NCBI GenBank assembly: GCA_050693035.1
Contig: JBOGWB010000061.1
Span: 6,834 to 70,833, forward strand
DNA: 64,000 nt
Source: Actinomycetota bacterium
Lineage (GTDB): Bacteria > Actinomycetota > UBA4738 > CALAEC01
Direction of reading: 5' to 3'
Shown here: in pieces, positions 474 to 23,385 of the stretch
Position numbering within the stretch: position 1 is the stretch's first letter
Layout of the letters: each line of letters starts with the position of its first letter
Program-made: the position numbers and the translations under genes
The notes under the pieces: generated by a model
The model's database searches: none
What the model was told of the DNA's origin: nothing
Seen by the model: the letters and a program-made list of their open reading frames with translations, nothing else

Positions 474-1451
474 CTAGAGGAGAAGCCGTTCCCGGACGGC
501 TGTTCCGAAACTTGGCCGATGCGCAACGAAGCGTTCCGCGCACTCACCCACGAGGAGGTCTCCAGAGTAGTGGCAGACCAGCGCTTCGAACACGGCCATA
601 ACTCCCTCTAGCGTCACCAAGAGGGCATCCAGAAACGACCGGGCCTCGGAGGGAAGTGCGATGCCCTCAAGGAACGCATCTACGTCGCGGTAGTCAGTTC
701 GTGTCCGGAGACGCCAAAGGAAGTCGAAGATGGTCGTGGGCCGGAGCCCCTCCGCGATCCTCTCCCGCTCTCCATTCGGCAGCCGGCGGCGTCGGTTCTT
801 CTCCTTCCACTCCGCCGCTAACCGATCGACCTCCTTCTCACGGGTCGTCTTGAGGAGCCGACAGAGCGCCCCCCAGTTGGTTTCGGGATCAGGGGCCTCC
901 CAGTTATGAGGGAGCGTGATGTTCGCCCCGTGGGGGAGACCATGGAAGCGGTTGGGCTTGTACGCAGGCACACCGACACAGGTGAGACTCCAAGGAGGGG
1001 GGAAGAGTCCTCTCTGAACGCAATCCACGAGAGAACGAAGCAGAGCGGCATGGTTCCTCGGTCTTCCCGCACCGGAAGCCACGTGGAACGCCAGCGCGGC
1101 ATGGAACATGGCGTAATAGGCGTCTGTCGCCGTACCCGGTAGAAGGTCGGGGAGGTCCTCAACGGGGTGTTCCCGAAGGGCCTGGATCCGCCCCTCCCGG
1201 TGCCACGCCTGGCGGAGGTGGCGTTCGAGGTCCTGGGACTGTTCAGGGCTCAGTCGACGCAACCTGATCCGCTGAATAGAGGGGAGACCGTTAACGGTCT
1301 GGCGGACTCCCAAGGGGAGATCGTGGCCTAGCCCATAGTAGCCCCCGAGGAAGACGCCGAGGTTCTCAAGGTAACGTCGGTACGTCGTGAATGCCGCCGC
1401 AGCTTCGGGGTCGGTCGGCCGGATGTCGCCAAAGAAGACCCGGATGGGCAT
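474..1451 (-). CDS. hypothetical protein, 325 aa, alpha-helical; possibly YaaC-like/HEPN-like (unverified)
   Basis: Long ORF with no competing frame. Segments AYYAMFHAALAFHVASGAGRPRNHAALL and LWRLRTRTDYRD recall YaaC-type proteins. This is from memory only and needs an HMM check. Confidence 0.55.
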   Translation of the reverse strand: MPIRVFFGDIRPTDPEAAAAFTTYRRYLENLGVFLGGYYGLGHDLPLGVRQTVNGLPSIQRIRLRRLSPEQSQDLERHLRQAWHREGRIQALREHPVEDLPDLLPGTATDAYYAMFHAALAFHVASGAGRPRNHAALLRSLVDCVQRGLFPPPWSLTCVGVPAYKPNRFHGLPHGANITLPHNWEAPDPETNWGALCRLLKTTREKEVDRLAAEWKEKNRRRRLPNGERERIAEGLRPTTIFDFLWRLRTRTDYRDVDAFLEGIALPSEARSFLDALLVTLEGVMAVFEALVCHYSGDLLVGECAERFVAHRPSFGTAVRERLLL

Positions 1452-1782
1452 TTCCTGTCGCTCTTCCCGATTGGATTGCTTTCTAGATTAACATCCCGGC
1501 CCTCAGCCCCCACTGGGCACGCCGAACTCCGAGAAAGGGGTCGTCAGACCGCGACCAGTCGAGCAGCAGGGCGCGCGGTATCCCCCCAGAATGTCGCGAA
1601 AACAGGTGGGTTGGGCGCAGGGCTGGCTCTCGATCACTGTGGTGCGGCCCGCTCGGAAGCCGTACGGTCCTCGGTGGGCCGCGACCCCAACAACCCCGAG
1701 AACGCGGTACTTGGTGCTGGTGAATCCGCCGGATGACCCGCTCGATCTCCCCGTACCCCGGATCCTTTCGTCACGCCGTCCT

Positions 1783-2745
1783 CTAAGCACCCAGGCTATC
1801 CAGCCACTCGAATGCCATGGGGACGGACTGGACGGCAATCCGCGCCTCCCGCTCGTCGATCCGAGCCGCTGTGTGGGCCACAGCGTTGCGCAGTTCAAAG
1901 AGCCTCTCCAGCTGCTTGTAAGCGTTCCGACGTTCCTCGCGAAGGCTTCGCCCCGCAACTGCCCGCGCCACCTTGTCGAACAGGTCGATGGCCGATTGCG
2001 GGAACGCCCGCGGATTCTTGAAGAGGACATCCAGCAACGGCTGAGTTTCGGGTGAGACGACAGCTTCCCAGGTCCGTTTGGCCTTCACTTCAGCGGCCAC
2101 CGCTGCGAGTAGCACGGCCAGTTCCGGCTGGACCACTTTCCCGCGCTGATGGATGAGGAGGCCGCGTGCCTGTGACAGCAGTGTCTCCGGCTCGGGTGGT
2201 TCGATGAGCCCGGCGAGACTGGGGGCAAGATTTTCGAAGTCCTGCGAGCTCAGGGCCGTCTCCTCTGTCGGCCTGGAACCGTACAGGGTGATGGTTGGCG
2301 CCACTGGGATGTCTCGGCCCGTTTCCTTCTCCCGTATCTGATCGGACCACAACCGTGGGGGCAGCTCCCCGCTCGGCCCGAGGTCGGGCTGGCGGACGAA
2401 TATCCAGCGCCTCAACCGCGCAGCGGTTTCCACGGCCAGGCGGTCCGCCTCCGTGATGGCGCCCGCGAGCGCGTCGTAATCTTCAGCCTCTGAGTCACCG
2501 GTCAAAGCCGCAGCACTGACGTCTGCCTCAAACTCCACAGTGACGGAGAAGTAGTGGACCGCGTAAACCCGGGGCTCTTCGTGGACCCGCAGTATCACCC
2601 TTGCTCCCAGCTCCAAATGGGGCCCCCATGTAAGCGACAACTGGTCCCCGACGGAGGGGAGGGCGATCCGCACTCGAGAACCTTCAACGGAAAACTCCGT
2701 CGACTCGGTGTTCCTGTCGGCTTCTACCTGAATCGCAAGCCCCAA
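1783..2745 (-). CDS. HEPN-like (Rx4H motif) protein, start uncertain
   Basis: The C-terminus reads ERLFELRNAVAHTAARIDE, with R-N-A-V-A-H matching Rx4H. The ORF is open to 3063, but that would overlap the anti-sigma gene by 190 nt. The first canonical start after that gene's stop is TTG at 2745. Confidence 0.55.
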   Translation of the reverse strand: MGLAIQVEADRNTESTEFSVEGSRVRIALPSVGDQLSLTWGPHLELGARVILRVHEEPRVYAVHYFSVTVEFEADVSAAALTGDSEAEDYDALAGAITEADRLAVETAARLRRWIFVRQPDLGPSGELPPRLWSDQIREKETGRDIPVAPTITLYGSRPTEETALSSQDFENLAPSLAGLIEPPEPETLLSQARGLLIHQRGKVVQPELAVLLAAVAAEVKAKRTWEAVVSPETQPLLDVLFKNPRAFPQSAIDLFDKVARAVAGRSLREERRNAYKQLERLFELRNAVAHTAARIDEREARIAVQSVPMAFEWLDSLGA

Positions 2746-2872
2746 GACATCGCTGCCAGCGCTTCGCGGAGAGGGAAGCCCGGCGACTGAACGCAGCAGC
2801 CCCGAACCCCGGCCGCTGCGGACCGGGGTTCGGTGGCTGAGGTGGGGACAAATGGCTGCGAGCGCGGCTCGT

Positions 2873-3760
2873 CTAGCAACCTCGATCCAACATGGCGGTG
2901 ACGGCGGGGTCGAAGTTGGGGGGTTCGGGGGAGACCCAGATCCACACCTCTCCCTCAGCACGGGGTTGAGCGTCCACGACGTATGCGTCTGCGATGGTAA
3001 CGGGATTGATTCCCTGGACGTCGTCTCCTTCCTCAATGGCTCTCCAAGTGGCTCTGACACCACGGTCAGCGAGGACGGGCAGCGCCTCCCTCACGGTCTT
3101 GCCGCGCACACCACTGCAGTGCAGAATCTCGCCCGGAGCGAAGGCCTCCGTCGCGATCTCGTATGTTTCCCCCGACCTCGCTGTCCGGCCGATCTCGATA
3201 GTCACCTGTCCGACGAAGTCGGTAGGAATCTTGAGGCCGACAGGGCATTGGAAGCCACCGCCCTGCGTGAAGCACGCCCCTTCCTCGTACAGTATCTCGA
3301 GGTTGGAAGGTCCGGTGGGCCCGTCGGGATACATGGCTCCAACAGTTCCAACCAGGCTGGGGGAGGCTGGTACCAGGGTGGCCCGAACGTCTAGGCCATG
3401 CTGGGAAAAAGCCGCCTCCAACTCCTGCTGCGTCGCCGCTGGATCGACGATCCGGGCCACGATGTAGTCGCCTTCGGTGGTGAAGGCGACGGCCTCCGGC
3501 GCCCGCACCAGCTGAGGGCCGACTACCAGACCGACGACGAGAAGCATTACGGCGGCCGCAGCCATGCCCACCCGGACGGGTCCAAGGCGGGCGCCGGCGA
3601 GGCGCGAGGCAAGGCCAGCGTGTTCGGACCGCGGCGTGGAGACGATCTCCTCGAAGAGGGCCTGTGCGGCAGGCGTGGCCGACAGCGAGGCCAGATCCTC
3701 GTCTTGGACCGACGCGAAGCTCGCAACGACCCCATTCAGCCGATCATTTCGTTCACTCAC
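2873..3760 (-). CDS. putative anti-sigma factor / single-pass membrane protein
   Basis: Sits directly downstream of the ECF sigma gene. GTG at 3760 forms a GTGA overlap with the sigma stop. It has one TM segment (VGMAAAAVMLLVVGLVVGP) and an extracytoplasmic domain of unknown family. Confidence 0.55.
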   Translation of the reverse strand: MSERNDRLNGVVASFASVQDEDLASLSATPAAQALFEEIVSTPRSEHAGLASRLAGARLGPVRVGMAAAAVMLLVVGLVVGPQLVRAPEAVAFTTEGDYIVARIVDPAATQQELEAAFSQHGLDVRATLVPASPSLVGTVGAMYPDGPTGPSNLEILYEEGACFTQGGGFQCPVGLKIPTDFVGQVTIEIGRTARSGETYEIATEAFAPGEILHCSGVRGKTVREALPVLADRGVRATWRAIEEGDDVQGINPVTIADAYVVDAQPRAEGEVWIWVSPEPPNFDPAVTAMLDRGC

Positions 3761-4389
3761 CTGGCATCCCTCCCATCCTGGGAGTCGACCGTCCACCTAT
3801 GACCCACATGTCCAGACGAGGCGTCTGGTTTCAGGTCGACGCCGTGTCGAGCCAATTCGCGCAACAGGCGTCGACGGGCTCGGTGGAGCCGAATCTTCGC
3901 GGCGTTGGGAGAACAGCCCAGCGCCGCGGCCAGCTCCGCCGTGCCGAGCCCCTCCCACGTGGCGAGGCCAAGTATCTCCCGATCCGCGGGGCGCAGCGCT
4001 TCGAACGCGGAGCGTGCGCCGACGCCGTCGGGCGTCGGGGTTGCGAGCCGATCAAATCGGGCAATGTCCTCCGCGAGGCGACCGGTGAGCTTGGCCCGCC
4101 GCAGCACACCACGACGATGATTCCCGAGCACCCGCCGAGCAACTCCATAGAGCCAGCTGCGGGCTTCCTCGCCTGCAGGGACCTGCTCGAGTCGCCTCCA
4201 TGCCACGAGGAACGTCTCCGCCGCTACATCGGCGGCGTCTTCAGCCGATGCTCCCCGGCGCAGCGCATATCCCAGGATGCGCTCATAGTTCGCTTGGTAG
4301 AGCTCTCGGAACCTGTTGCGCTCCTTACCTTCCGAGCCTTCCCGCATCTCCCTCACACCATGGCTCCCGTACGACACCCCACCTCGCAA
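3757..4389 (-). CDS. ECF-type RNA polymerase sigma-70 family factor
   Basis: Region 2 reads FRELYQANYERILGYALRR...AEDAADVAAETFLVAWRR. Region 4 reads REILGLATWEGLGTAELAAALGCSPNAAKIRLHRARRRL. Confidence 0.85.
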   Translation of the reverse strand: MRGGVSYGSHGVREMREGSEGKERNRFRELYQANYERILGYALRRGASAEDAADVAAETFLVAWRRLEQVPAGEEARSWLYGVARRVLGNHRRGVLRRAKLTGRLAEDIARFDRLATPTPDGVGARSAFEALRPADREILGLATWEGLGTAELAAALGCSPNAAKIRLHRARRRLLRELARHGVDLKPDASSGHVGHRWTVDSQDGRDAR

Positions 4390-4522
4390 GGCCGATGAGC
4401 ACCCCCCTCACACCCAAAGAGAGGCCAGGCCGGCATCTCTCGTTATCCATGTCCGGATAGCACGGGTAGGTTTCACGGCCGCCGACATTTTCCCGTCTTT
4501 GTCTTGGATACGGGGGGAAGTC

Positions 4523-5530
4523 CTATCCTTGAGCAAGGAGTCGCTTGGCCCTAGCGACAGCTTGTTCTTGCAGCTCACGCCAGGCGGCATACTGCCCTTC
4601 CCTCTCTCCCAAGAGCACCCGCGTGTACCTCCGCTCGAGTTGCTTCGCGATCCGCACCACCCCGGCACGCGCCGCGCATCTGGCATCCGACACGGCAATG
4701 CTGATCTCCCCGGACCTCGCATCTGCAGCTGTCTTGCCCGGAGAATCGTAGAAAGCCTGTGCCGCAGCTATCGCGTCGGCGCGTTGCTCGAAGCGATACC
4801 CATTTTCCCTCATGCACTTGCGCCATACAGATAGGGCGCTCGTGTACCTCGGGTCAGCCGCCACCCTCTGATCAACTTCAGGGGCTATCTGCATCATGGC
4901 TACCCGCAATTCGAGATACTTCCTGAGGTCGCCATATACCTGTCGGTCGGCCCCGGCGTTGCAGCCCTCTCCTGGCATGGAGAACTCCGCGCCGTTAGGA
5001 AGCCGTAGCCTTATCCTGTTCTCCCAGCGACCGGAGAATGCCAATTCCCATCTTGCTCGATCGTCAGGGGACAGCGAGGACAGGTACCCATAGTTGGGAT
5101 CCACCCAGTTCTCCCAGAAGTCCTTCTCCGAGAGCCCGTACCCATGTTCACGTGCAACGCTGACATCATCGATCCCCCATTGATCGTTTTGCGACTCCGG
5201 GGGCAGTTCGTTCGGGGACACCGTGTTGAAGGGGAAGCCCTTCTGCTCCATACAGCGCTTGGTGAGCTCATCGGTCGCGAACGCCAAGAACCTCTCATCG
5301 GACATCCGGGCGGAAGCGGCAAGGAGGGAACTCGAATGTGATCCTCCTCTCGTACCTGTGCAAGCCTGGAGTACGACCGTAACGACTAGCAGGCAGTCGA
5401 ACCTTGTAGGTCTTCCTGTCCTTCTCCGTGCGATCGTGCAGTTGTCTTCCTGAGGTTTCCCGTCGTCTTTCCGAGGTTCCACCCTCCAGCCAGTAAGGAT
5501 GGGAAATGCCCCGTTGCGTAGAGTAGGCAT
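4523..5530 (-). CDS. hypothetical secreted protein, possible lipoprotein
   Basis: Has a lipobox-like LLVVTVVLQAC motif. The rest has no recognised family. The exact start is uncertain. Confidence 0.55.
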   Translation of the reverse strand: MPTLRNGAFPILTGWRVEPRKDDGKPQEDNCTIARRRTGRPTRFDCLLVVTVVLQACTGTRGGSHSSSLLAASARMSDERFLAFATDELTKRCMEQKGFPFNTVSPNELPPESQNDQWGIDDVSVAREHGYGLSEKDFWENWVDPNYGYLSSLSPDDRARWELAFSGRWENRIRLRLPNGAEFSMPGEGCNAGADRQVYGDLRKYLELRVAMMQIAPEVDQRVAADPRYTSALSVWRKCMRENGYRFEQRADAIAAAQAFYDSPGKTAADARSGEISIAVSDARCAARAGVVRIAKQLERRYTRVLLGEREGQYAAWRELQEQAVARAKRLLAQG

Positions 5531-5555
5531 GTGCGGATTTCGCTTCCCGAGCTCA

Positions 5556-5945
5556 CTACCCGCCCGGATTCGAACACGCAGTACTGCTCCACCTATGCGA
5601 GTCGCCGGAATCGTCTGGAGTCACCAGGGGCGCTGCGAGGCCCTCCGGAAGACAAGAGATCACCGTTCCCGAGAAGTTAATGCCAGTATACGTTCTGAGC
5701 GCCGCCAGGCCGGCCGTCCCGTGATTGTAGTGCGAGTCGTCCATGTTGGCGATGGTTGAGGGCCAGTCTTCATCAGCGGCTGCATTGGAGTAGGGCAAGC
5801 CTTGTGGACGGAAATGCGTGTCGACCCACGCGCAGAAGCGAGTCGCTGGGCAGTCCTCTGTTCCAGCATATGCTGGTTCTTCAGTCGCAGGAACCATGAG
5901 AGACAGAGTCACGACTACAAGCGCGATCCTTCCCGAGGCGTTCAT
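5556..5945 (-). CDS. secreted peptidase-inhibitor I36-like / beta-gamma-crystallin-like protein
   Basis: Signal peptide (IALVVVTLSLMVPA), then CPATRFCAWVDTHF and NMDDSHYNHG ... DDSGDSHRW. This is the pattern I associate with the I36 (SMPI-like) family. Confidence 0.55.
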   Translation of the reverse strand: MNASGRIALVVVTLSLMVPATEEPAYAGTEDCPATRFCAWVDTHFRPQGLPYSNAAADEDWPSTIANMDDSHYNHGTAGLAALRTYTGINFSGTVISCLPEGLAAPLVTPDDSGDSHRWSSTACSNPGG

Positions 5946-6166
5946 TGCCCACTCCCTTCAGGTCGCCGATATCTCCCAGGCAAACAGTGGCTCCGACCCA
6001 TGCAGGCATGTTGGCGTCGATCCAGGAGCCTGGTCAAGGACGGGAGATAGGCAACTCGTGGACACATTCAGGCCCGTGATCTGTGCAGATTCTCGGAGAT
6101 GCGATTCACACCGACTCCCTTGTCCGACTCGCCGCCCCCCTCGAGAATTCCTCACGGAACTGGCAA

Positions 6167-6748
6167 TCACCTTTTGGTCCTCAGGAAGCGTCTGAGACGC
6201 CCGGAAGGACTCGCGAGACGAAATCCCACGCCACGAACCGACTCGATCGTTAGTCTGACGCCATCGGCTCGAAGCTTCCTCCGCAAGCGTTTCACGGCGG
6301 CATGGATGGCCTCGATGTCACCGTAAAACGCCGCACCCCAGACCCTCTTGTAGAGATCACTGAAGGTGCACGCTCGCCCTGGATTCTCCGCCAGGACGAC
6401 CAGGAGCTGGAACTCGTGATCAGTGAGATCCAGTGGCGTTCCAAACCACCGAACCCTCCGCTCGGTCAGGTCGATCTCAAGATGGTCAACCCGGAGGATG
6501 ACGCGAGGAAGATCCCGCTCGCTTCGGAGTCCTAAGGCTTGTGGGAGCCATAGGCGTGCGATCTCGAGGCTCGGCGCGAGCACAACCAGAGAACCGCGGT
6601 CGACCAGGTCGTCGATGCGAGGATGATCCTTGGTCTCCTCTCCGATAAGAAGCACGAGAGGTGGCGATCTCGACAGCGCGGCTGTCCGGGAGGGCGGTGC
6701 AGGACCAGGCATCGTGAGCATCCTGACTCTAGGCCACTCAATAAGCAT
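6167..6748 (-). CDS. OmpR/PhoB-type winged-helix DNA-binding regulator with atypical N-terminal region
   Basis: The C-terminus reads LEIDLTERRVRWFGTPLDLTDHEFQLLVVLAENPGRACTFSDLYKRVWG...AVKRLRRKL...IESVRGVGFRL. The N-terminal part is short and shows no clear receiver acidic pocket. Confidence 0.7.
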   Translation of the reverse strand: MLIEWPRVRMLTMPGPAPPSRTAALSRSPPLVLLIGEETKDHPRIDDLVDRGSLVVLAPSLEIARLWLPQALGLRSERDLPRVILRVDHLEIDLTERRVRWFGTPLDLTDHEFQLLVVLAENPGRACTFSDLYKRVWGAAFYGDIEAIHAAVKRLRRKLRADGVRLTIESVRGVGFRLASPSGRLRRFLRTKR

Positions 6749-16203: not shown

Positions 16204-16527
16204 ATGAGCATCGAGATCACGGTGGCCATCATCGCCGCGTCCCCTCCCACCCTTGCCGCCATCCTGGCCTTCCTCCAGAGCCGGTCCGTCCGCCGGCAGG
16301 TGGCGACCAGCGGGAAGGCCCCCATCGGGGCGGTGGTGGAGCGCCTCGAGCGAAGGGTGGAGCGGCTGGACGAGAAGGTGTCGGGGATCGCGGACCGCCT
16401 CGCGCACATGGAGGGGCGGGAGGTCCTTCCCCTGCGGCTCGACCGGCGCGTGGAGCGGCTGGACGAGGAGCTGCGCGCCCTGGGCGAGCGTGTGGCCCGG
16501 ATCGAGCCGAAGGGCGGGACCCCCTGA
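16204..16527 (+). CDS. small membrane-anchored coiled-coil protein
   Basis: MSIEITVAIIAASPPTLAAILAFL is a TM segment, followed by the duplicated heptad-like motif RLERRVERLDEKV / RLDRRVERLDEEL. Its stop overlaps the ATG of the next ORF (TGATG). Confidence 0.45.
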   Translation: MSIEITVAIIAASPPTLAAILAFLQSRSVRRQVATSGKAPIGAVVERLERRVERLDEKVSGIADRLAHMEGREVLPLRLDRRVERLDEELRALGERVARIEPKGGTP

Positions 16528-16787
16528 TGGACGCGGACCGGCGGATACGCGGCGGCACGAACGAGGACGTGCCGAGAGGAACGGCGAAGGAGCGCAACCT
16601 TCTGATGTCCGTTCAGGAGGGGGTGCTGCTCCGCGTCGAGGCGGCGGCGATCTTGCTCGGCATCGGCAGAACGACCATGTACGAGCTGATCAGGCGCAGA
16701 GCGATCCCCGTGGTGCGGATCGGACGCCGTACCCTCGTCCACCGCGCGGACTTGGAGCGATTCGCACAGGCCCAGCGCGGTCGGTAG
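16527..16787 (+). CDS. excisionase-family / MerR-like helix-turn-helix DNA-binding protein
   Basis: LLRVEAAAILLGIGRTTMYELIRRRAIPVVRIGRRTLVHRADLERF is a typical xis-type HTH. An alternative start is ATG at 16605. Confidence 0.7.
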   Translation: MDADRRIRGGTNEDVPRGTAKERNLLMSVQEGVLLRVEAAAILLGIGRTTMYELIRRRAIPVVRIGRRTLVHRADLERFAQAQRGR

Positions 16788-16960
16788 GGATCGATGTCCG
16801 CACGACCGCGTGGCTCGCTCACCATCCGACCGCCACGCCAGCCGGGTGGTCGTGCGGCACCGGCCGACGCTCCATCTCGGCAGAGATGTCATAGGAGTGC
16901 CGGACCATCCCCGCTACGGACCGGCCCCGAGTCGGGGCCGAAGGCGCAGGAGAACTGGTC

Positions 16961-18169
16961 GTGAGTAGGCGGCGTGGATACGGCGACGGAACGGTCAGGC
17001 AGCAGGGCCGACGATCGTGGCAAATCAGGGTCCCACTGGGTGCGGATCCGCTGACCGGAGCGTGGCTCAGGCACACCGAAACAATCACCGGAACCAAGGC
17101 TGAGGCGGAGAGAAGACGGCGGGAACTCCGCCTCGAGCGAGACAGAGGAACCCTTGCGACCCCGGGCAACAAGACCCTGGAGGAGTACCTCAGGAAGGAG
17201 TGGCTCACAGCCGTCTCCCATGTGTCGAAGCGCGGCCAGCCACTCGCTCCCACCACGCGCAGGCGATATGGGGACGTCGTCGACCACGTCTGCCGGTTGA
17301 TCGGCGACGTGAAGCTGGCCTCCCTGCGCACCGCCCACGTCGAGCGGCTCCGGGACGAGATGCTCAGCGAGACGCTGGAGCGGAAGAGCGGTGAGGTCAT
17401 CCCTCGCTTCAGCCCCCAGACCGTGGGCGACATCCTGCGAGTGCTGTCGCAGGCCCTGCGCAAGGCCGAGGCCAAGGGGCTGATCTCCAGGAACTGGGCG
17501 GACCCGACCCTCGTCGATCGTCCCGCCGGTCAACCCAGGGAACTGCCCCCGATGGAAGAGGATCTGGCGAAACGCATCCTGGAAGCGGTCCGGGGGGAGG
17601 ATCCCTGGGACGCGGCGGTTCATCTGGCATTGGGCCTGACGATGCGCCGAGAGGAGGTTCTCGGCCTCCGCTGGCCAGACGTCGACCTGCGGGAAGGGAT
17701 CCTCACCGTCAGGAACACGATCACCTACACGCCCAGACAGATGCACGAAGGGGGACCAAAGACGGAGGCTGGGAGGCGGACGGTCCCCGTGCCAGCGTTC
17801 GTGGGCGAGGCCCTTCGCCGCCATCGGAAGCAGCAGTCGAGGCGGCGCCTCCGCCTAGGGTCGGCTTGGCGGGACGGGTGGGACGTGGTGGTAGATCGGG
17901 GCGACGGTGCACCTTGGCTGCCCCCCACGTTTTCCAGAGCGTGGACGTCCTTCGCCAAGAAAGCGGGCTTCCCTGACATCGGGTTCCACGAGCTCCGACA
18001 CGGCGCTGCGACCCTCATGCTCGCCGCGGGGATCCCGGACGCGGTCGCCATCAAGTTGATGGGCCACCGAGACACCCGCATCCTCAGGCGCTATCAGAAA
18101 GTCGTCGACCGGCTCAAGCGAGAGGCTGCTGGGAAGTTGGACGAGCTGCTGGGCGGCCCGGGGAGCTGA
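16961..18169 (+). CDS. tyrosine-type site-specific recombinase (integrase)
   Basis: The GTG start gives a 402-aa protein. The N-terminus GYGDGTVRQQGRRSWQIRVPLG is SAM-like. Catalytic motifs are GLRWPDVDL, HELRHGAATLMLAAGIPDAVAIKLMGHRDTRILRRYQKV. Confidence 0.9.
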   Translation: MSRRRGYGDGTVRQQGRRSWQIRVPLGADPLTGAWLRHTETITGTKAEAERRRRELRLERDRGTLATPGNKTLEEYLRKEWLTAVSHVSKRGQPLAPTTRRRYGDVVDHVCRLIGDVKLASLRTAHVERLRDEMLSETLERKSGEVIPRFSPQTVGDILRVLSQALRKAEAKGLISRNWADPTLVDRPAGQPRELPPMEEDLAKRILEAVRGEDPWDAAVHLALGLTMRREEVLGLRWPDVDLREGILTVRNTITYTPRQMHEGGPKTEAGRRTVPVPAFVGEALRRHRKQQSRRRLRLGSAWRDGWDVVVDRGDGAPWLPPTFSRAWTSFAKKAGFPDIGFHELRHGAATLMLAAGIPDAVAIKLMGHRDTRILRRYQKVVDRLKREAAGKLDELLGGPGS

Positions 18170-18313: not shown

Positions 18314-19603
18314 TCATTTGTCTCCCTCAATGATCCGCAGATACTCCTGGTAGCGTCGACGGGCGTTCTCGATCATGTCTTGGTAGGTCCACAAGACCGG
18401 GTAGTCTCGCATGTCAGCGAGCTCCCGAGCCTCATCAGAAATCTTGCGGCCAATAAGGTAGATAAGCGGGTTCTTCTTCTGACCCTGGTGCTTTCTAATC
18501 AAGCGTAGGTACAACTCGGCCTGGTCCACCTCCGGTTTCTTTATCTCCACGGATGGACGCTTGATTTCCACTAAGACCGGCCGCTTTCCAACGAGATCTA
18601 CACAAGCGAAGTCCGGACGATTCTTGGCATACTTGCGATCTGATTTCGCCAGCTCTTGCCCAATGATCTTCCTCAAGCTCCGGTTGGACTGCGCGATCCA
18701 GTACTCATCGTTCAGCAGCCACATGCTCTTCTCGAGTGTGCGGTGAATGGACTTGTCCCCCTTTAACTCGTATGTGTTGTCATCCAGCACAAGATCTTCC
18801 AGCGTGTCAATCGTGTTAATGCGTGATACCAGGATGTTGACGAGCGCGGTGACCTGCAGCAGATTCCACTCCTCCATCAGGTCAGTCAGTTCATCCAGCG
18901 CCTTGGCCGGCTCTTTAGCCAAGCGCTTGATAACGTCTTGGAAGGCGACCTGGATGCGCTTCTGACCCTTCGGAATCGCCGCATCGACGGAACTGAGGAG
19001 ATCAAATGCGAAATCGGCTCCCTGCCTCTCCACGAGATCAGCGATTCGTTCGGGGAGCTTCTTCCGCTCCCTCTTTGGTATAGCCTCGGCGGCTTCGGGC
19101 AAGCGGCTTAGAACCCGCTTGACTTCCTTCGTTTCAGGAAGGACATCATCAGATGTTCTGGTGAAGGTCTCCGGAAACGCCTCATTGAGGAACTGAGTTG
19201 CCGTTCGGAGGCCCGTCTGTCGGTAAACCTCAAAGAAGCGTGCCTGGCCCGCCTCTCGAAATGCCTCGTAGTTGACTACTACTCGTTTCGCTCCTATGGA
19301 CGACTCTCCGTCGGATAGCACGAGCGCGCAATCGGACCCGAGCTCTGCACGAATCAATTCGATAAGGTGCTTTCCACCGCGGAACCCTCTAAGGAGTAGG
19401 GCGTCGTAGGCTCTGGTGCCATCTCGGAACTTTCGCTTCTCCAGGTCCTTCTTCAGATCCGCGCTGATAAACAGCGGCTGGTCCTTCAGCGCTCCATAAC
19501 TGCGATTCTGAATCTCGATCGGAATGGGTTGCGCCAAGCCCGCTTGCGTACGTCGCTTGCGTCCTCCAGAAGGCTGCTTTGGTGATGTCCGTTTCCGCGT
19601 CAC
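18314..19603 (-). CDS. DUF4263 / Shedu (SduA)-like PD-(D/E)xK nuclease-domain protein
   Basis: The C-terminal part reads IHRTLEKSMWLLNDEYWIAQSNR...NRPDFACVDLVGKRPVLVEIKRPSVEIKK...QAELYLRLI. This fits the D...E.K core and flanking pattern I associate with DUF4263. It has the lowest GC sampled in the window (48% and 55% in two hand-counted lines). Confidence 0.6.
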   Translation of the reverse strand: MTRKRTSPKQPSGGRKRRTQAGLAQPIPIEIQNRSYGALKDQPLFISADLKKDLEKRKFRDGTRAYDALLLRGFRGGKHLIELIRAELGSDCALVLSDGESSIGAKRVVVNYEAFREAGQARFFEVYRQTGLRTATQFLNEAFPETFTRTSDDVLPETKEVKRVLSRLPEAAEAIPKRERKKLPERIADLVERQGADFAFDLLSSVDAAIPKGQKRIQVAFQDVIKRLAKEPAKALDELTDLMEEWNLLQVTALVNILVSRINTIDTLEDLVLDDNTYELKGDKSIHRTLEKSMWLLNDEYWIAQSNRSLRKIIGQELAKSDRKYAKNRPDFACVDLVGKRPVLVEIKRPSVEIKKPEVDQAELYLRLIRKHQGQKKNPLIYLIGRKISDEARELADMRDYPVLWTYQDMIENARRRYQEYLRIIEGDK

Positions 19604-19658
19604 TTGTGGTTCCTGCCTGCTCTCTTCTTGAAAGCGATTAGCGGATACATGTGCGAGG

Positions 19659-20780
19659 TCACCTCTTGTCGGTGGGCCAATGAATCGGCTTTTTGAGATC
19701 GTTGAGGTGCGATCGCGGCACCTTGGCGTCCCGTTGAAGCCGGCCTACAACAATCCCGGGAGCAATTTCCTGGGCCTGCGCGAAGACACGAATAGCGCTG
19801 GCGCTGAAATCGCCCGCATCGACGAACGCCTGGTACTCGTGTGGTGGCAGCAGAACGTCTCGGGCGAACCGGTTCGCCGTCTCCTCGTCAGCGTCGGAAT
19901 CCGGGGGAAACTCCAGGTCGACCGGGTCGACGAACTCTCGCTTTCGAGAAGAGGTGAGGACATGGCCAGCCTCATGGAAGAAAGTGAACCAGAAGTGATC
20001 GTCCGACTTATGGCGCGCGCTGAGCTGGATGACTGGACTGCCACCGACCCAGCGGATAGCGCCGCTGATGTGCGTGCCCTCGAACTCAGGGGTTAGGAGA
20101 ACGATGACGCCGGCCTTGGCGCACATCGTTATGACCCGATTGAGAATCTGCATGAATGGACCACGGCGCGTCATTGGTCGAATCTGTTCCAGGACCTGCC
20201 GGAATCCATGGGCATCAAAGGGCGGCAGATCAGCAATCTCGGCGGCTAGGATCTCGCCCCAGCGCAGCCAGGCGGCCACCGCCTTAGGTGATGCCATGAA
20301 CGCCGGTGACGAACGGTAGGCCGCCTCCGGAGCAAGCCAATGCCGCTCGAAGGCTTCGGGGCTGCTCACCTGGAAGAAGGAGAGCAGCTCGGCCAGCGTT
20401 CCCGCTTTCGTAGCACCACGCCGGATCAGGTCGCGCCGGATGAGATCCTTGAGTGGGAAGCCATCGGCCCAACTGGCATTGGCCTCAAGTTCCTTCTGGG
20501 CCTCCTGACGGGCCGCATGTTCGCGAAACCTGGTCTCCAGCCCTGTCCAGAACCTCGCCGAGATGCCGAGGGCCCGCTCAAGCTGGATCGCCGTCTCAGC
20601 GGTGATCGCTGCCTTGCCCTTGATGATCTCGTTGATGGTCTTCAGGGGGCGCGCCATCCGGCGGGCCAGCTCGGACTGTGTCATCCCGCGATCCTGCAAG
20701 GACTCAAGGAGGATCTCGCCGGGCGGGACGGTCCAATCGGGCTGCCAGCCCGACGTTGGGTCATTTGCCATGGTAGTCAA
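19659..20780 (-). CDS. HigA-type XRE HTH fused to ImmA/IrrE-type zinc metallopeptidase
   Basis: The N-terminus PGEILLESLQDRGMTQSELARRMARPLKTINEIIKGKAAITAETAIQLERALGISARFW is a HigA/VapI HTH. The C-terminus FWFTFFHEAGHVL carries HExxH. The start overlaps the upstream HigB-like gene. Confidence 0.8.
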   Translation of the reverse strand: MTTMANDPTSGWQPDWTVPPGEILLESLQDRGMTQSELARRMARPLKTINEIIKGKAAITAETAIQLERALGISARFWTGLETRFREHAARQEAQKELEANASWADGFPLKDLIRRDLIRRGATKAGTLAELLSFFQVSSPEAFERHWLAPEAAYRSSPAFMASPKAVAAWLRWGEILAAEIADLPPFDAHGFRQVLEQIRPMTRRGPFMQILNRVITMCAKAGVIVLLTPEFEGTHISGAIRWVGGSPVIQLSARHKSDDHFWFTFFHEAGHVLTSSRKREFVDPVDLEFPPDSDADEETANRFARDVLLPPHEYQAFVDAGDFSASAIRVFAQAQEIAPGIVVGRLQRDAKVPRSHLNDLKKPIHWPTDKR

Positions 20781-21072
20781 CGACCTCCTTGATCACGATT
20801 TTCGTCACTCGGGCCCGGTCGGTGCCTCCAGCGGGCAACCGGGGCAACGGATCGTGATCGGGTTCGAAGATCAGTCGATACGAACCCCACAGGTCGACAG
20901 CGAACTCGCCGGCACGGTCTGCACGAAGCTGATGGCAGTTGCCCGGCACCCCTTCCATGTCCCGCAAGGTCGGAGCGGCCATCAACGACGCCAGCCGAAG
21001 CTTGAGCCGCCGCCAGTTTTCCGCGCCCCAACGCTTCGCTCCCCGTCGATCGTCGGAACACGTCTTCTCCAA
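20761..21072 (-). CDS. HigB-like (RelE/ParE superfamily) toxin; true 5' end unclear
   Basis: LRLASLMAAPTLRDMEGVPGNCHQLRADRAGEFAVDLWGSYRLIFEP...VIKEVVDYH matches the plasmid-maintenance killer HigB pattern. Homology continues upstream of the TTG at 21072 (KIEISWSNRRLEK, to about 21110), where no canonical start is present. Confidence 0.65.
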   Translation of the reverse strand: MEKTCSDDRRGAKRWGAENWRRLKLRLASLMAAPTLRDMEGVPGNCHQLRADRAGEFAVDLWGSYRLIFEPDHDPLPRLPAGGTDRARVTKIVIKEVVDYHGK

Positions 21073-21165
21073 CCTACGGTTGGACCACGAAATCTCGATT
21101 TTCGCTCCCTTGACTTCTTCACCCTTGGGGTTAATACTACACTACCCCTAGGGAGGAATACCAGG

Positions 21166-22302
21166 GTGGCCAGGAGGTGGGTTCAACAGGCATTCGAGGA
21201 CGTGGATTTCGTCCCGGTGCCCGGTGGCAGCGGTCACTACGTCGCGGCCGTCCAGAACAAGTCCGGCGAATTGGATGCACTCCGCAACGCTTCGGCGGAG
21301 ACGTGGAGCCGGCTGACCCCGCTCGTCCAAATCGTGGGCCCCAAAAAGCGGCCTGAAGCACACAAGCGAGACACGGTCGCCGGCTGGGTCAAGCGCATCT
21401 CCCAGGCGGTTGGTCATCGGCCATGTTTCCTAGACGTCCTCCGCCTTCGTCCAGGACATCCCACGACGACATCCGGGGGAGCCGAGCCGATTCTCAGCGT
21501 CATCCACGCGGCGGCTCGGAAACGCGGCATGGTCTTCGTCCCGGTCCTGCCCATCGGCCGTTCCGACGGCAGAGATTACGTGCGCCTCGCCGGCGAGGCC
21601 GTGGCCTGCGATGGACGAGGCGCCGCGCTGCGGTATCCGATACGGCGCTTCGCGCTGGAACCAGGCGAGACCCACGCGACCGTGCTCGCCGAGGCCCTCA
21701 GGGACCTGGGGATCGACGTGACTCGTGCAGACGCCCTCGTCGATCTCGGCTACCTCTCAGGGGACGAGGAGCTGCACCTCGAAGATGTGGACGAAGCCCT
21801 CAAGGAGGTGACTGCCGTCGGTCCGTGGCGCAGCCTCGTGCTGCTCGGCACCTCGATGCCATCCATGCTCGGAGGGACGGTCGGCGAGGGAACGATCGGC
21901 GAGCTGCCGCGCCGAGAGTGGGAGCTATGGTCCGCGCTTCAGCAGGATACCTCTAGGCGAATGCCAACCTACGGCGACTACGTCGTTCAGCATCCTGATC
22001 CGCCACGCGACGAGGATGGTGGTGGCCCCGGCATGCGAGCCAACATCCGTTACACAATTACGAGCACCACGCTCGTTGCTCGGGCGCGCGGGCCGCTAAT
22101 CCAGGAGGGCCGGGAGCAGTACCGGGACCTCTGTCAGCAACTCGTCGCCAGACCGGAGTTCTCGGGCCCCGACTTCAGTTGGGGAGATTCAGTGATTGCT
22201 GCATGTGCCAGCGGGGAAAGCGAGCCCGGATCGCAGAACCAGTGGCGAGGAGCAGGATCATCCCACCACTTCCGCGTTGTGACACAGGCGCTCAGCCGCT
22301 GA
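21166..22302 (+). CDS. beta-protein family (PF14350-like; sce7725-like) protein
   Basis: GTG at 21166 is preceded by GGGAGG. HYVAAVQNKSGELDALRNASAETWSRLTPLVQI matches the Y.P.L+.K.GE..AL...TPL.E. opening of the T4 beta-protein family as I recall it. The upstream 200 codons of track ORF 20563..22302 are antisense to higBA and were ignored. Confidence 0.6.
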   Translation: MARRWVQQAFEDVDFVPVPGGSGHYVAAVQNKSGELDALRNASAETWSRLTPLVQIVGPKKRPEAHKRDTVAGWVKRISQAVGHRPCFLDVLRLRPGHPTTTSGGAEPILSVIHAAARKRGMVFVPVLPIGRSDGRDYVRLAGEAVACDGRGAALRYPIRRFALEPGETHATVLAEALRDLGIDVTRADALVDLGYLSGDEELHLEDVDEALKEVTAVGPWRSLVLLGTSMPSMLGGTVGEGTIGELPRREWELWSALQQDTSRRMPTYGDYVVQHPDPPRDEDGGGPGMRANIRYTITSTTLVARARGPLIQEGREQYRDLCQQLVARPEFSGPDFSWGDSVIAACASGESEPGSQNQWRGAGSSHHFRVVTQALSR

Positions 22303-23083
22303 CGTCAACAGTGCAGAACCGACGCGTGGGGATGCGAGCGAGACCGGGATCCCGCGCGAGAATGGCCCTGCGGACCACCTCTTTCAACCGATCGACGTCA
22401 ACCAGGCTGATCAGGTGGCCCCACATCGACGACCGACTGGCCTGAGCATCGGGTTCATGCCCGAGCGCGGCCAGAACCGCGCGAACCTCCTCTCGCCAGA
22501 GGAGCCGAACCAGCGTCTCGGGATCGACGCCGTGGTTGGGAGTCGCCGATCGCACGGAGCGGAAGGACGGCTGCCCCTCGTCCGTGACGATGGTCACGAT
22601 ACCCCACCACTCGGGCAGCATCTCCATCGCGGCAGCGACATGGCGTTCCGCTAGGACGATGGTGCACCGATCGAAAAGACGAGCGTAAGCGGTCGCCTGA
22701 CGTGGGAGTCGCTTGAGGGTATCTCGCTCTGTCTTTATTTCGAAGGCCGACATGTGGCCGCCGACAACCACGACATCGGCTCTCTCATTCGAGCGCGGCA
22801 CCCAGAATTCGTAGATGGTCTCGCTCGGAGTCTTGGCTGAGGCGACTATCTCAGCGCGCAGCCGGTCTCGGACGATCGCCTCAGTCGCCTCCACAGGCCG
22901 ACCCAGCCTCGGAGGTGGGAGGGCCAGCCATCGGAGTTCACGCACGTGAGTGAAGCTGTCGTGAGGTCCCGCGCATTCCTTGGCAAGGTCAGAGCAGGAC
23001 GCCGCTCCGAACATACGTTCGAGTATGGGAGGGGCCACCGACACGCCGGCTAGTCGACCATAGGGGCGCCTCCGACACCACAT
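22292..23083 (-). CDS. PD-(D/E)xK nuclease-fold protein (sce7726-like / MmcB-like)
   Basis: ERADVVVVGGHMSAFEIKTERDTLKRLPRQATAYARLFDRCTIV carries D-x11-E-I-K. The likely start is ATG at 23014 (MFGAAS...). The 3' end overlaps the convergent beta-protein gene by 11 bp. Confidence 0.6.
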   Translation of the reverse strand: MWCRRRPYGRLAGVSVAPPILERMFGAASCSDLAKECAGPHDSFTHVRELRWLALPPPRLGRPVEATEAIVRDRLRAEIVASAKTPSETIYEFWVPRSNERADVVVVGGHMSAFEIKTERDTLKRLPRQATAYARLFDRCTIVLAERHVAAAMEMLPEWWGIVTIVTDEGQPSFRSVRSATPNHGVDPETLVRLLWREEVRAVLAALGHEPDAQASRSSMWGHLISLVDVDRLKEVVRRAILARDPGLARIPTRRFCTVDVSG

Positions 23084-23312
23084 CTTGAGGCGAAAAACCC
23101 TCCCGGGATGGACCCCCTGGGATCGCCCAACCGATCGGCCGCCTTGATTGCTCCATCGATTCGAGGACGTGTCGCCGAGGCCAGTCGTGGGCCATCTCTG
23201 CCGTCTTCGGGAGGAAGCAAATAGGGCGGAACATAGGGCGAGAATTACTCGGAGGAACAGACGTTCGAATCGCGAAGTCAGGGAAACCGCAGTTCAAGAG
23301 GGTTCTTCTTTG

Positions 23313-23385
<73 letters not shown>

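What the first reader, a model, noticed from the sequence alone, without database searches (positions are those of the whole stretch)
18314..21110. Co-directional HigB-like / HTH-ImmA / DUF4263-nuclease block: possible regulated Shedu-type module
Three minus-strand genes run head to tail. The HigB-like gene overlaps the start of the HTH-peptidase gene. The latter ends 55 nt before the DUF4263-like gene (RPDFACVDLVGKRPVLVEIKRPS).

The nuclease gene has the lowest GC sampled in the window, while the TA-like pair has higher GC, so the block may be a composite. Shedu is usually described as a single-gene system. A dedicated XRE-HTH/Zn-peptidase immediately upstream could be a sensor or regulator, or it could be an independent neighbouring system.
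Basis: partly seen in the sequence, partly recalled or inferred. Interest (0 to 1): 0.62.

Follow-up and report, generated by a model that had tools for sequence, protein, structure and literature searches.

The report
Two separate defence modules, not one
The three head-to-tail genes are real but are not one system. The HigB-like and Xre-peptidase genes belong to a conserved four-gene PD-lambda-2-type anti-phage cassette that continues on the other side. The nuclease is a separately acquired, single-gene Shedu-like enzyme with an unusual catalytic core.

Summary
Observation confirmed. Three minus-strand ORFs run head to tail: the HigB-like and HTH-M78 genes overlap by 11-20 nt, a 55-nt spacer follows, and the nuclease gene has the lowest GC in the window (55%).

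The interpretation as one "regulated Shedu module" is not supported.
- The HigB-like/HTH-M78 pair is the A/B half of a PD-lambda-2-type cassette.
- Its other half lies outside the finding: a divergent P4 Beta gene (21166-22302) and a convergent P4 cII-like gene (22292-23083).
- This roughly 3.3-kb four-gene block is 78-84% nt-identical in four related soil contigs (70% in a fifth).
- The homology stops at the HTH-M78 stop codon. What follows there differs in every relative: AbiV, DarTG or unknown ORFs.
- In 17 loci with nuclease homologues, none carries a homologue of the cassette genes.

The 429-aa protein misses Pfam DUF4263 (15.8 vs 27 bits).
- Its N-terminal domain is shared with 112 of 120 bona fide DUF4263 Shedu proteins.
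- Its PD-(D/E)xK core is a remote DUF4263 relative (hhalign 96.9%). The same core is also found fused to GHKL ATPases and to LRR-Roc-COR.

Best reading: two adjacent, independent defence systems in an integrase-linked island. No RNA data exist, so co-transcription across the 55-nt spacer cannot be excluded.

The parts
18314..19603 (-). Stand-alone Shedu-like nuclease gene, 429 aa from GTG preceded by AGGA. An alternative TTG start at 19537 gives the 407-aa database form.
   Evidence: ORF. The family of 89 homologues is about 400 aa long and patchily spread over bacterial and archaeal phyla. Homology to relatives is confined to the ORF. It has the lowest GC of the window.
19004..19525 (-). N-terminal domain (about aa 27-200) of the nuclease. 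It is a Shedu-type N-terminal (regulatory) domain.
   Evidence: 35% identical over aa 27-197 to P0087, whose C-terminus is a full SduA_C domain of 86 bits. phmmer hits 112 of 120 bona fide DUF4263 proteins, with E down to 1.5e-40. hhalign gives 99.8%. AF2 pLDDT is above 90 for aa 30-120.
18317..18961 (-). C-terminal helical linker plus PD-(D/E)xK nuclease core (aa 215-429). Family-invariant residues are E279, D331, E346, K348 and Q361.
   Evidence: Invariant columns. NF050001 BbrUII/HgiDII C-terminus 3.3e-11 and phrog_6203 5.4e-28. SduA_C is below threshold. hhalign to the DUF4263 core gives 96.9%, E 1.7e-10. The AF2 domain model has pLDDT 89, and the top Foldseek hits are NucS/EndoMS, MspJI and Cdn1. 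There are 426 representative clusters, with the core always C-terminal.
19604..19658 (-). 55-nt spacer between the HTH-M78 stop and the nuclease start. This is the break-point of synteny.
   Evidence: blastn homology to relatives ends at 19652-19675, and downstream sequences cannot be aligned. No promoter, terminator or operator copy was found.
19659..20780 (-). PD-lambda-2 B-type protein: a HigA-like Xre HTH fused to an ImmA/IrrE M78 metallopeptidase (HEAGH at 269-273).
   Evidence: Pfam HTH_3 plus Peptidase_M78. PADLOC PD-Lambda-2_B 5.8e-32 and capP 1.2e-7. TIGR02607 HigA 1e-15. More than 3,800 homologues, up to 83% identical.
20761..21099 (-). HigB/RelE-like small protein (PD-lambda-2 A position). 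It probably starts at the non-canonical ATC at 21099 (112 aa) rather than TTG at 21072 (103 aa).
   Evidence: phrog_3066 toxin 4e-10. Pfam HigB-like E=0.07-0.1. PGAP names the equivalent gene RelE/ParE toxin on plasmids. Across 5 loci, eight of the nine codons upstream of TTG differ only at synonymous third positions and the ninth varies Arg/Lys; a GGAG lies 5-8 nt before ATC and the sequence upstream of it varies in length.
21100..21165 (.). 66-nt divergent control region. It holds the palindrome core ACCC-N3-GGGT (21121-21131) and overlapping -10-like elements. On the + strand, TTGACT-17-AATACT lies at 21110-21138.
   Evidence: Promoter scan. The palindrome is conserved in 5 related loci. 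It is also present upstream of the HigB-like gene on Deinococcus (TTCACCCCTGGGGTGAA) and Gloeocapsopsis plasmids that lack Beta. It is the only such site within 11 kb of the locus; one other lies at 9869.
21166..22302 (+). P4 Beta-family protein (PD-lambda-2 C), 378 aa from GTG with a GGGAGGA Shine-Dalgarno sequence. It is transcribed divergently from the A/B pair.
   Evidence: PF14350 1.3e-60. PADLOC PD-Lambda-2_C 1.6e-44 and beta 5.1e-7. The position is conserved in L016-L020.
22292..23083 (-). P4 cII-like / sce7726-family protein, convergent with Beta and overlapping it by 11 nt.
   Evidence: NF033832 7e-42. PADLOC cll 6.5e-24. tblastn with P4 cII 1e-10. The same convergent pairing occurs in P4 and Rac-SA53 and in L016, L017 and L019/L020 (PF26915).
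16527..18169 (+). Excisionase (HTH_17, 16527-16787) and tyrosine integrase (16961-18169), convergent with the nuclease gene. This is mobile-element context.
   Evidence: Pfam.
23312..23385 (-). tRNA-Gly(GCC), the right-hand border of the low-GC island.
   Evidence: ARAGORN. GC rises to 69-72% beyond it.

Best explanation
The stretch holds parts of two independent anti-phage modules that lie side by side in an integrase-linked, low-GC island next to tRNA-Gly.

Module 1 (19659-23083) is a four-gene PD-lambda-2-type cassette.
- A HigB-like protein and a HigA-HTH/M78-peptidase fusion form one autoregulated operon.
- A P4 Beta-family gene is transcribed divergently from the same 66-nt control region.
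- A P4 cII-like gene converges on Beta.
- Inferred: the Xre HTH of the fusion binds the conserved palindrome at the promoter of its own operon and so represses the overlapping divergent promoters.
- By analogy with E. coli PD-lambda-2, B is the toxic component, A neutralises it, and Beta is needed for defence, which acts by abortive infection (PMC9519451).

Module 2 (18314-19603) is a single-gene Shedu-like nuclease.
- A Shedu-type N-terminal domain is fused to a divergent PD-(D/E)xK core (D331, E346, K348).
- Inferred from Shedu: the N-terminal domain holds an oligomeric nuclease inactive until it meets a phage-specific DNA feature, and the enzyme then cuts DNA.

The nuclease was acquired separately. 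It occupies a variable slot just downstream of the cassette, which in relatives holds other defence genes. It may still be read through from the upstream operon, but it is not a functional partner of the HTH-peptidase.
For: Cassette identity:
- PADLOC PD-Lambda-2_B 5.8e-32 and PD-Lambda-2_C 1.6e-44, cll 6.5e-24.
- Beta_protein 1.3e-60; sce7726 7e-42.
- Published PD-lambda-2 composition and genetics.

Conservation:
- Five loci with 73-83% identical HTH-M78 proteins all show Beta divergent from HigB-like followed by HTH-M78. Four of them also have a called cII.
- blastn shows 78-84% identity over 3.23-3.29 kb from 19652-19666 to about 22900. The left end sits at the HTH-M78 stop codon.
- The genes downstream differ in each locus: a 75-aa ORF plus DarT/DarG, HEPN_AbiV, a 225-aa ORF plus resolvase, and a 215-aa ORF.

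Nuclease independence:
- 17 loci with nuclease homologues (34-66% identity) were examined: L001/2, L003/5, L004, L006-L015 and L030-L032. None has a tblastn match to the HTH-M78, HigB-like, Beta or cII proteins.
- Nucleotide homology is confined to the nuclease ORF.
- Family sizes differ strongly: 89 nuclease homologues against more than 3,800 for HTH-M78.
- The nuclease GC is 7 points below the pair.

Shedu-like nature:
- The N-terminal domain is shared with 112 of 120 DUF4263 proteins.
- hhalign of the cores gives 96.9%.
- D/ExK/Q residues are invariant.
- The core occurs C-terminally behind varied N-termini: GHKL, LRR-Roc-COR, a Zn-ribbon, or little N-terminal sequence. This matches the modular architecture described for Shedu.
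- Homologues sit in RM loci and beside integrases, as reported for Shedu.

Operator:
- The palindrome travels with the HigB/HTH-M78 pair across phyla, whatever the neighbouring genes.
- There is no copy in front of the nuclease gene.
Against: - The spacer is only 55 nt, and neither a promoter nor an intrinsic terminator was detected in it. Co-transcription with the HigB/HTH-M78 operon is therefore plausible and untested; only DNA runs from a cave metagenome exist.
- One nuclease homologue (L030, 66% identity) also lies next to an Xre HTH plus M78 peptidase pair. That pair is split, divergent and not detectably homologous to the window's protein.
- HigB/HTH-M78 pairs elsewhere do have tightly coupled downstream genes, for example a Fic gene overlapping by 4 nt in Deinococcus.
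- The window protein itself fails the DUF4263 threshold. Foldseek ranks NucS/EndoMS first, and no Shedu chain appears in the top 50.
- The HigB-like protein does not match any PADLOC model, PD-Lambda-2_A included.
- All functional statements are by analogy. Nothing was tested at the bench.
Confidence: 0.8

Rival explanations
1. First reader's model. The three co-directional genes form one regulated Shedu-type system. The Xre-HTH/M78 peptidase, with its HigB-like partner, acts as sensor or transcriptional switch for the downstream nuclease, in the way CapH/CapP regulates immune operons.
For: - The genes are co-directional, with a 55-nt gap and no detectable terminator.
- The M78 domain matches the capP model at 1.2e-7. 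CapH/CapP-type regulators are reported to control many immune operons.
- L030 has an Xre plus M78 pair adjacent to a 66%-identical nuclease.
- HigB/HTH-M78 pairs do associate with varied defence genes.
Against: - The arrangement is not conserved in 17 nuclease loci or in 5 close HTH-M78 loci.
- Cassette homology ends at the HTH-M78 stop codon.
- The only operator-like palindrome lies upstream of the HigB-like gene, with none near the nuclease.
- GC differs between the genes.
- The L030 pair is not homologous to the window's protein and lies in an int/xis context typical of ImmR/ImmA element regulators.
Confidence: 0.07
2. Transcriptional passenger. The nuclease is functionally autonomous but lacks its own promoter, so it is expressed by read-through from the autoregulated HigB/HTH-M78 promoter. 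Its level then follows the state of that repressor without any protein-level coupling.
For: - No promoter-like or terminator-like site was found in the spacer or at the end of the HTH-M78 gene.
- There is a good AGGA Shine-Dalgarno sequence 7 nt before the GTG.
- The spacer RNA folds only moderately (z = -2.3) and lacks a U-tract.
Against: - The consensus scan covers sigma-70-type promoters only, and actinobacterial promoters are poorly captured by it.
- In relatives the same slot holds genes in either orientation, with gaps of 180-560 nt. The slot therefore does not generally depend on read-through.
- There are no RNA data.
Confidence: 0.25
3. The 429-aa protein is not Shedu-like in function. 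It is instead a restriction-type endonuclease: a truncated relative of BbrUII/HgiDII-family type II enzymes, or a type IV enzyme that acts on a DNA sequence or modification.
For: - The best curated sequence match is the C-terminus of NF050001, BbrUII/HgiDII restriction enzyme, at 3.3e-11.
- Foldseek hits include MspJI, AspBHI and Nt.BspD6I.
- 44 of 53 family members give HSDR_N_2 hits.
- One homologue follows hsdM/hsdS.
Against: - The match covers only the C-terminal 200 residues and scores 42 bits against a cut-off of 550.
- No methyltransferase is adjacent in the window.
- The N-terminal domain is the one used by bona fide Shedu proteins.
- Shedu genes are themselves often embedded in RM loci.
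Confidence: 0.1

Closest known systems
Shedu (SduA, DUF4263/PF14082). Mechanistic work: Loeff et al. (bioRxiv 10.1101/2023.08.10.552762) and Gu et al. (bioRxiv 10.1101/2023.08.10.552793).
   Same: - It is a single gene.
- The architecture is an N-terminal domain, a helical linker and a C-terminal PD-(D/E)xK nuclease.
- The N-terminal domain is homologous to that of more than 100 bona fide DUF4263 proteins.
- The core is remotely homologous to DUF4263 (hhalign 96.9%), including the C-terminal TY-D-L helix.
- It is found in RM loci and beside integrases.
- Its taxonomic spread is patchy.
   Different: - The window protein and most of its family fall below the Pfam SduA_C threshold, typically 15-25 bits against 27.
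- The core lacks about 27 residues that DUF4263 has between the ExK and Q motifs.
- Foldseek ranks NucS/EndoMS above any solved Shedu structure.
- Oligomeric state and activity are untested.
PD-lambda-2 (Vassallo et al. 2022, PMC9519451; E. coli ECOR42 RCO93357-RCO93355)
   Same: It has a HigB-like small protein, a HigA-HTH plus ImmA/IrrE peptidase fusion and a P4-Beta-like protein. The PADLOC B and C models match strongly.
   Different: - In ECOR42 the three genes are consecutive within 2.6 kb and are described as an operon. Here Beta is transcribed divergently and is paired with a convergent P4 cII-like gene.
- The A protein does not match any PADLOC model.
- The host is an uncultured high-GC bacterium from a cave metagenome.
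P4 gop-beta-cII (Rousset et al. 2022, PMC9122126)
   Same: The Beta and cII (sce7726) homologues are arranged convergently, exactly as in P4 and in prophage Rac-SA53. They lie next to an integrase-bearing element.
   Different: There is no gop homologue in the window. The toxin position is taken by the HigB-like/HTH-M78 pair, on the opposite strand.
CapH/CapP transcriptional regulators of immune operons (Lau et al., bioRxiv 10.1101/2022.04.27.489752; PMC13228613)
   Same: An Xre HTH plus M78 metallopeptidase is encoded beside defence genes, with a palindromic operator in the adjacent promoter region.
   Different: - Here the two domains are fused in one protein and are preceded by a HigB-like gene.
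- In E. coli PD-lambda-2 the fusion protein is itself toxic rather than purely regulatory.
- No evidence links it to the nuclease.

Membership tests
Shedu (SduA) | DUF4263 / SduA_C domain above Pfam's gathering score | tested here: not met
   PF14082 scores 15.8 bits (cut-off 27), E=0.016, covering only profile positions 5-57. PADLOC SduA scores 12.6 bits. 22 of 53 family members give hits at E<=0.01. Among the 20 family members and core-bearing representatives scanned individually, the only one above the cut-off was P0087, which carries a genuinely different C-terminus.
Shedu (SduA) | Nuclease core homologous to DUF4263 (profile-profile) | tested here: met
   hhalign of the family's C-terminal alignment against 120 bona fide DUF4263 C-termini: probability 96.9%, E 1.7e-10, 137 columns. 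No control against NucS_C or HSDR_N profiles was possible, so this shows superfamily relatedness, not subfamily membership.
Shedu (SduA) | PD-(D/E)xK catalytic residues | tested here: met
   D331, E346, K348, Q361 and E279 are invariant in 53 sequences.
Shedu (SduA) | Type 1 architecture: an N-terminal regulatory domain in front of the nuclease | tested here: met
   Residues 25-205 hit 112 of 120 DUF4263 proteins by phmmer, E down to 1.5e-40. BLASTP to P0087 gives 35% identity over aa 27-197. hhalign gives 99.8%.
Shedu (SduA) | Single-gene system with no obligatory partner | tested here: met
   The neighbours differ in all 17 homologue loci, and homology is confined to the ORF.
Shedu (SduA) | Fold closest to solved Shedu structures; tetrameric assembly | tested here: inconclusive
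   Foldseek with the domain model (pLDDT 89) puts NucS/EndoMS, MspJI, Nt.BspD6I and Cdn1 on top, with no Shedu chain in the top 50. The profile search of PDB sequences gives Shedu 8ps4 at E=0.31 only. Oligomer state was not modelled.
Shedu (SduA) | Anti-phage activity dependent on the nuclease residues | not testable with these tools
   Needs phage challenge.
PD-lambda-2 | B component: Xre/HigA HTH fused to an ImmA/IrrE peptidase | tested here: met
   PADLOC PD-Lambda-2_B 5.8e-32 over residues 27-353. HTH_3 plus Peptidase_M78. HEAGH motif.
PD-lambda-2 | C component: P4 Beta-like protein | tested here: met
   PADLOC PD-Lambda-2_C 1.6e-44 and 2.9e-43. PF14350 1.3e-60.
PD-lambda-2 | A component: HigB-like protein upstream of and overlapping B | tested here: inconclusive
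   The position and the 11-nt overlap fit. phrog_3066 toxin 4e-10. Pfam HigB-like scores only 13.5-14.1 bits, and no PADLOC model matches even at E<=10.
PD-lambda-2 | Co-directional A-B-C operon as in ECOR42 | tested here: not met
   In ECOR42 the three proteins are consecutive in 2.6 kb and are described as an operon. Here, and in 5 relatives, C is divergent from A/B.
P4 gop-beta-cII | beta and cII homologues, convergent | tested here: met
P4 gop-beta-cII | gop toxin gene upstream of beta | tested here: not met
   tblastn of P4 gop against the window gives nothing below E=1.9.
CapH/CapP regulator pair | Separate HTH repressor and M78 peptidase proteins controlling an adjacent immune operon | tested here: not met
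   The domains are fused in one 370-373-aa protein. The capP model matches the peptidase part only, at 1.2e-7. Control of neighbouring genes was not testable.

The most novel reading that the evidence does not exclude
The HigB-like/HTH-M78 pair may be a portable, autoregulated switch that couples to whatever effector lies beside it. It carries a phylum-spanning operator (TTCACCC-N1-3-GGGTGAA). Observed neighbours are Beta/cII here, multiubiquitin-E1 operons on Streptomyces and Rhodococcus plasmids, and a translationally overlapping Fic on a Deinococcus plasmid. In this window it could then control both the divergent Beta/cII genes and, by read-through, the Shedu-like nuclease, giving a two-effector system under one sensor.
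Probability: 0.1. Interest if true: 0.6.

Novelty: new variant of a known kind. Interest (0 to 1): 0.35.

Why it matters
For annotation, the locus should be split. The HigB-like/HTH-M78 pair should be read together with Beta and cII as a PD-lambda-2-type cassette, in a rearranged divergent form that is conserved at 70-84% nt identity in soil and cave actinobacterial-type contigs. The nuclease should be read as a separate single-gene system.

The more interesting point is the nuclease family.
- The same Shedu N-terminal domain is found on two different nuclease cores: canonical DUF4263 and this shorter variant.
- The variant core is in turn fused to GHKL ATPases (the BbrUII/HgiDII type), to LRR-Roc-COR, to Zn-ribbons, or occurs with little N-terminal sequence.
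- This suggests sensor and effector domains of Shedu-type enzymes are exchanged as cartridges. It also means HMM-threshold searches for DUF4263 undercount such systems.

The slot directly after the cassette's stop codon, filled by AbiV, DarTG or this nuclease in different genomes, is a small example of a defence-gene insertion hot spot.

Tried and rejected
- A direct repeat of tRNA-Gly, to define island ends: no exact repeat longer than 13 nt and no convincing local alignment.
- RNA evidence for co-transcription: only DNA runs from cave and soil metagenomes hold the stretch.
- Whole-protein AF2 model against PDB: pTM 0.49, and only weak hits to the NucS C-domain.
- The domain-only model improved confidence (pLDDT 89, pTM 0.78) but still put no Shedu chain in the top 50.
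- PDB sequence-profile search: nothing significant.
- Extending the HigB-like ORF to the ATC start barely improved the Pfam HigB score. The extension therefore rests on codon-level conservation only.
- The idea that the nuclease travels with int/xis was rejected. The L030 integrase is only 29% identical, and nucleotide homology is limited to the nuclease ORF.
- The idea that L030's 98-aa/HTH/M78 trio is a split PD-lambda-2 A/B was rejected. There is no HigB-like signal and no tblastn similarity.

Full report
**Observation.** The three minus-strand ORFs are present as described.
- 18314-19603 encodes 429 aa.
- 19659-20780 encodes 373 aa, or 370 aa from the ATG at 20771.
- 20761-21072 encodes 103 aa.
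- The small ORF overlaps the start of the middle one.
- The middle ORF stops 55 nt before the GTG of the third.
- The quoted peptide is residues 329-351 of the 429-aa protein.
- The GC statement holds. The nuclease gene has 55.0% GC, against 62-66% for its four neighbours, 67% for the integrase and 69-72% for flanking core genes.

**What the HigB-like/HTH-peptidase pair belongs to.**
- The 373-aa protein carries HTH_3 and Peptidase_M78 and an intact HEAGH motif. It matches the HigA antitoxin model.
- It matches PADLOC's PD-Lambda-2_B model at 5.8e-32.
- Divergently upstream, outside the finding, lies a 378-aa Beta_protein gene at 21166-22302. It matches PF14350 at 1.3e-60 and PD-Lambda-2_C at 1.6e-44.
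- Converging on Beta is a 263-aa sce7726/P4-cII-like gene at 22292-23083 (NF033832 7e-42; PADLOC 'cll' 6.5e-24).
- Vassallo et al. describe PD-lambda-2 as exactly this trio: a HigB-like protein, a HigA-HTH/peptidase fusion and a P4-antitoxin-like protein. In their system B is toxic alone, A rescues it and C is required for defence.
- P4 itself has gop, then beta, then a convergent cII, followed by int. Prophage Rac-SA53 has the same convergent beta/cII pair. gop-beta-cII is a reported anti-phage system.

**Comparative test of the pair.**
- The five contigs that encode 73-83% identical HTH-M78 proteins all show Beta divergent from HigB-like followed by HTH-M78. cII is called in four of them.
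- At the nucleotide level the window aligns to these contigs at 78-84% identity (70% for L018), from 19652-19675 to about 22750-22920. The conserved unit therefore begins at the stop codon of the HTH-M78 gene (19659) and excludes the nuclease.
- Beyond that point the sequences cannot be aligned, and the gene content differs in each: a 75-aa ORF plus DarT/DarG/UvrD, HEPN_AbiV, a 225-aa ORF plus resolvase, and a 215-aa ORF.

**Comparative test of the nuclease.**
- It has only 89 homologues in the word-indexed search, against more than 3,800 for the HTH-M78 protein.
- I examined 17 independent loci. tblastn with the window's HTH-M78, HigB-like, Beta and cII proteins found nothing in any of them.
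- Nucleotide similarity to the closest relatives (62-66% aa identity) is limited to the ORF itself.
- Contexts include a type I RM locus (L031), integrase neighbourhoods (L001, L030) and ordinary chromosomal genes. This matches what Gu et al. report for Shedu.
- One locus (L030) has a split Xre HTH plus M78 pair next to the nuclease. That pair is divergent, lacks similarity to the window's protein, has no HigB-like partner and sits beside int/xis, like an ImmR/ImmA element regulator. I count it as a weak hint only.

**What the nuclease is.**
- Pfam gives no hit above threshold. SduA_C scores 15.8 bits (cut-off 27) and HSDR_N_2 15.6 bits.
- The best matches cover residues 220-423: the C-terminus of NF050001 (BbrUII/HgiDII restriction enzymes, 3.3e-11) and phrog_6203 (5.4e-28).
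- The family alignment has invariant E279, D331, E346, K348 and Q361, a PD-(D/E)xK signature.
- The one family member with a full SduA_C domain (P0087, 86 bits) proved informative in an unexpected way. It resembles the window protein in the N-terminal domain (35% identity over residues 27-197), not in the nuclease.
- A search seeded with P0087's C-terminus returned 269 proteins at E <= 1e-5, of which the best 120 were listed and nearly all carry PF14082. The window's N-terminal domain hits 112 of those 120 (E down to 1.5e-40). Its C-terminal half hits none.
- Profile-profile comparison gives 99.8% for the N-terminal domains and 96.9% (E 1.7e-10, 137 columns) for the nuclease cores. The catalytic motifs and the C-terminal TY-D-L helix align, and DUF4263 has an extra segment of about 27 residues.
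- AF2 models have pLDDT 79.7 for the whole protein and 89.1 for the domain. The nearest solved folds are NucS/EndoMS, MspJI, Nt.BspD6I and Cdn1, not Shedu.
- An exhaustive search finds this core in 426 representative clusters, always at the C-terminus. Protein lengths are about 230-290, 360-440, 590-700 and more than 1,000 residues.
- Sampled members carry HATPase_c_3 or LRR-Roc-COR in front. They give SduA_C scores just below threshold, 21.7-25 bits.
- The protein is therefore a Shedu-type enzyme in architecture, with a bona fide Shedu N-terminal domain and a divergent, shorter nuclease cartridge. I do not file it as a DUF4263 member, because that test failed. I do think it works like Shedu: N-terminal-domain-controlled DNA cleavage, as shown for EcSduA and B. 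cereus Shedu.

**Control region.**
- The 66-nt interval between the probable HigB-like start and the Beta start holds a palindrome with core ACCC-N3-GGGT (21121-21131). It lies between the hexamers of a + strand promoter-like site, TTGACT-17-AATACT.
- Just downstream of a TAnnAT element in the HigB direction, the palindrome is conserved in all five related loci.
- The same motif lies upstream of the HigB-like gene on a Deinococcus plasmid (TTCACCCCTGGGGTGAA) and a Gloeocapsopsis plasmid, neither of which has Beta. Other palindromes occupy that position in Streptomyces, Rhodococcus and an Achromobacter phage.
- It is thus most simply the pair's own operator. There is no copy near the nuclease gene.
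- No promoter or terminator consensus is found in the 55-nt spacer, and its RNA fold has no U-tract. Read-through into the nuclease gene is possible. No RNA data exist for this cave-metagenome organism.

**Conclusion.** The finding's observation is correct, and its cautious alternative, an independent neighbouring system forming a composite block, is right. The headline idea of a regulated three-gene Shedu module is not supported. An earlier follow-up on the adjacent stretch (e1-2777259) reached the same four-gene cassette reading, and I re-derived it independently here.

What remains of interest:
- the cartridge-like exchange of nuclease cores behind a common Shedu N-terminal domain;
- the rearranged PD-lambda-2 plus cII cassette;
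- the variable defence slot immediately after the cassette.

Noticed in passing
window 21072-21099 (-): The HigB-like gene probably starts at a non-canonical ATC at 21099, 9 codons upstream of the listed TTG. Across 5 loci, eight of these nine codons differ only at synonymous third positions and the ninth varies Arg/Lys. A GGAG lies 5-8 nt upstream, and the sequence before it varies in length. Gene callers disagree (73, 74 or 103 aa). A weak start codon would keep the A component low.
   Followed up: partly
window 21117-21134; L026 about 3668-3684; L024 about 3631-3648: The palindrome TTCACCC-N1-3-GGGTGAA upstream of HigB-like/HTH-M78 pairs is conserved between this actinobacterial-type contig and plasmids of Deinococcus radiophilus and Gloeocapsopsis dulcis, whatever the neighbouring genes. 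It is probably the operator of the Xre domain.
   Followed up: partly
L025 (Streptomyces coelicoflavus plasmid) 1559-5110; L027 (Rhodococcus aetherivorans plasmid) 1451-5074: HigB-like/HTH-M78 pairs (about 38% identity) lie divergent from operons encoding a multiubiquitin-domain protein and a ThiF-family E1 (plus DUF6527 in Streptomyces, an unnamed 124-aa ORF in Rhodococcus). The geometry is the same as with Beta here. The pair seems to associate with different effector operons.
   Followed up: no
L026 (Deinococcus radiophilus pRadio3) 3709-6507: A Fic-family gene overlaps the end of the HTH-M78 gene by 4 nt, inside a type I RM/DUF262 locus. This is an example of a tightly coupled downstream gene for this pair.
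   Followed up: no
proteins P0459 (1118 aa), P0379/P0432 (605-655 aa): The variant nuclease core of the 429-aa protein also occurs at the C-terminus of an LRR-Roc-COR (ROCO-type GTPase) protein and of GHKL (HATPase_c_3) proteins. Each gives a SduA_C score just below Pfam's cut-off.
   Followed up: partly
L016 6247-10092; L017 6692-7240; L018 6400-7754: The position directly after the HTH-M78 stop codon is a variable slot. In different contigs it holds DarT/DarG plus a UvrD helicase, HEPN_AbiV, or an unknown ORF plus resolvase.
   Followed up: partly
L018 79-2668: In the 73%-identity relative, a 523-aa NucS_C-domain protein and an integrase sit next to the Beta side of the cassette. cII was not called there, although the DNA still aligns at 70% identity.
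   Followed up: no
window 19538-19603 (-): The nuclease and its closest relatives (60-67% identity) carry a 20-40-residue Lys/Arg-rich N-terminal tail that is absent from the rest of the family. The database copy of the window's protein starts after it (407 aa).
   Followed up: no
L030 3342-7897: The closest long-contig relative of the nuclease (66% identity) lies between an int/xis pair and a 98-aa/Xre/M78-peptidase trio fused to an Inhibitor_I42 domain. None of these is homologous to the window's neighbouring genes.
   Followed up: partly
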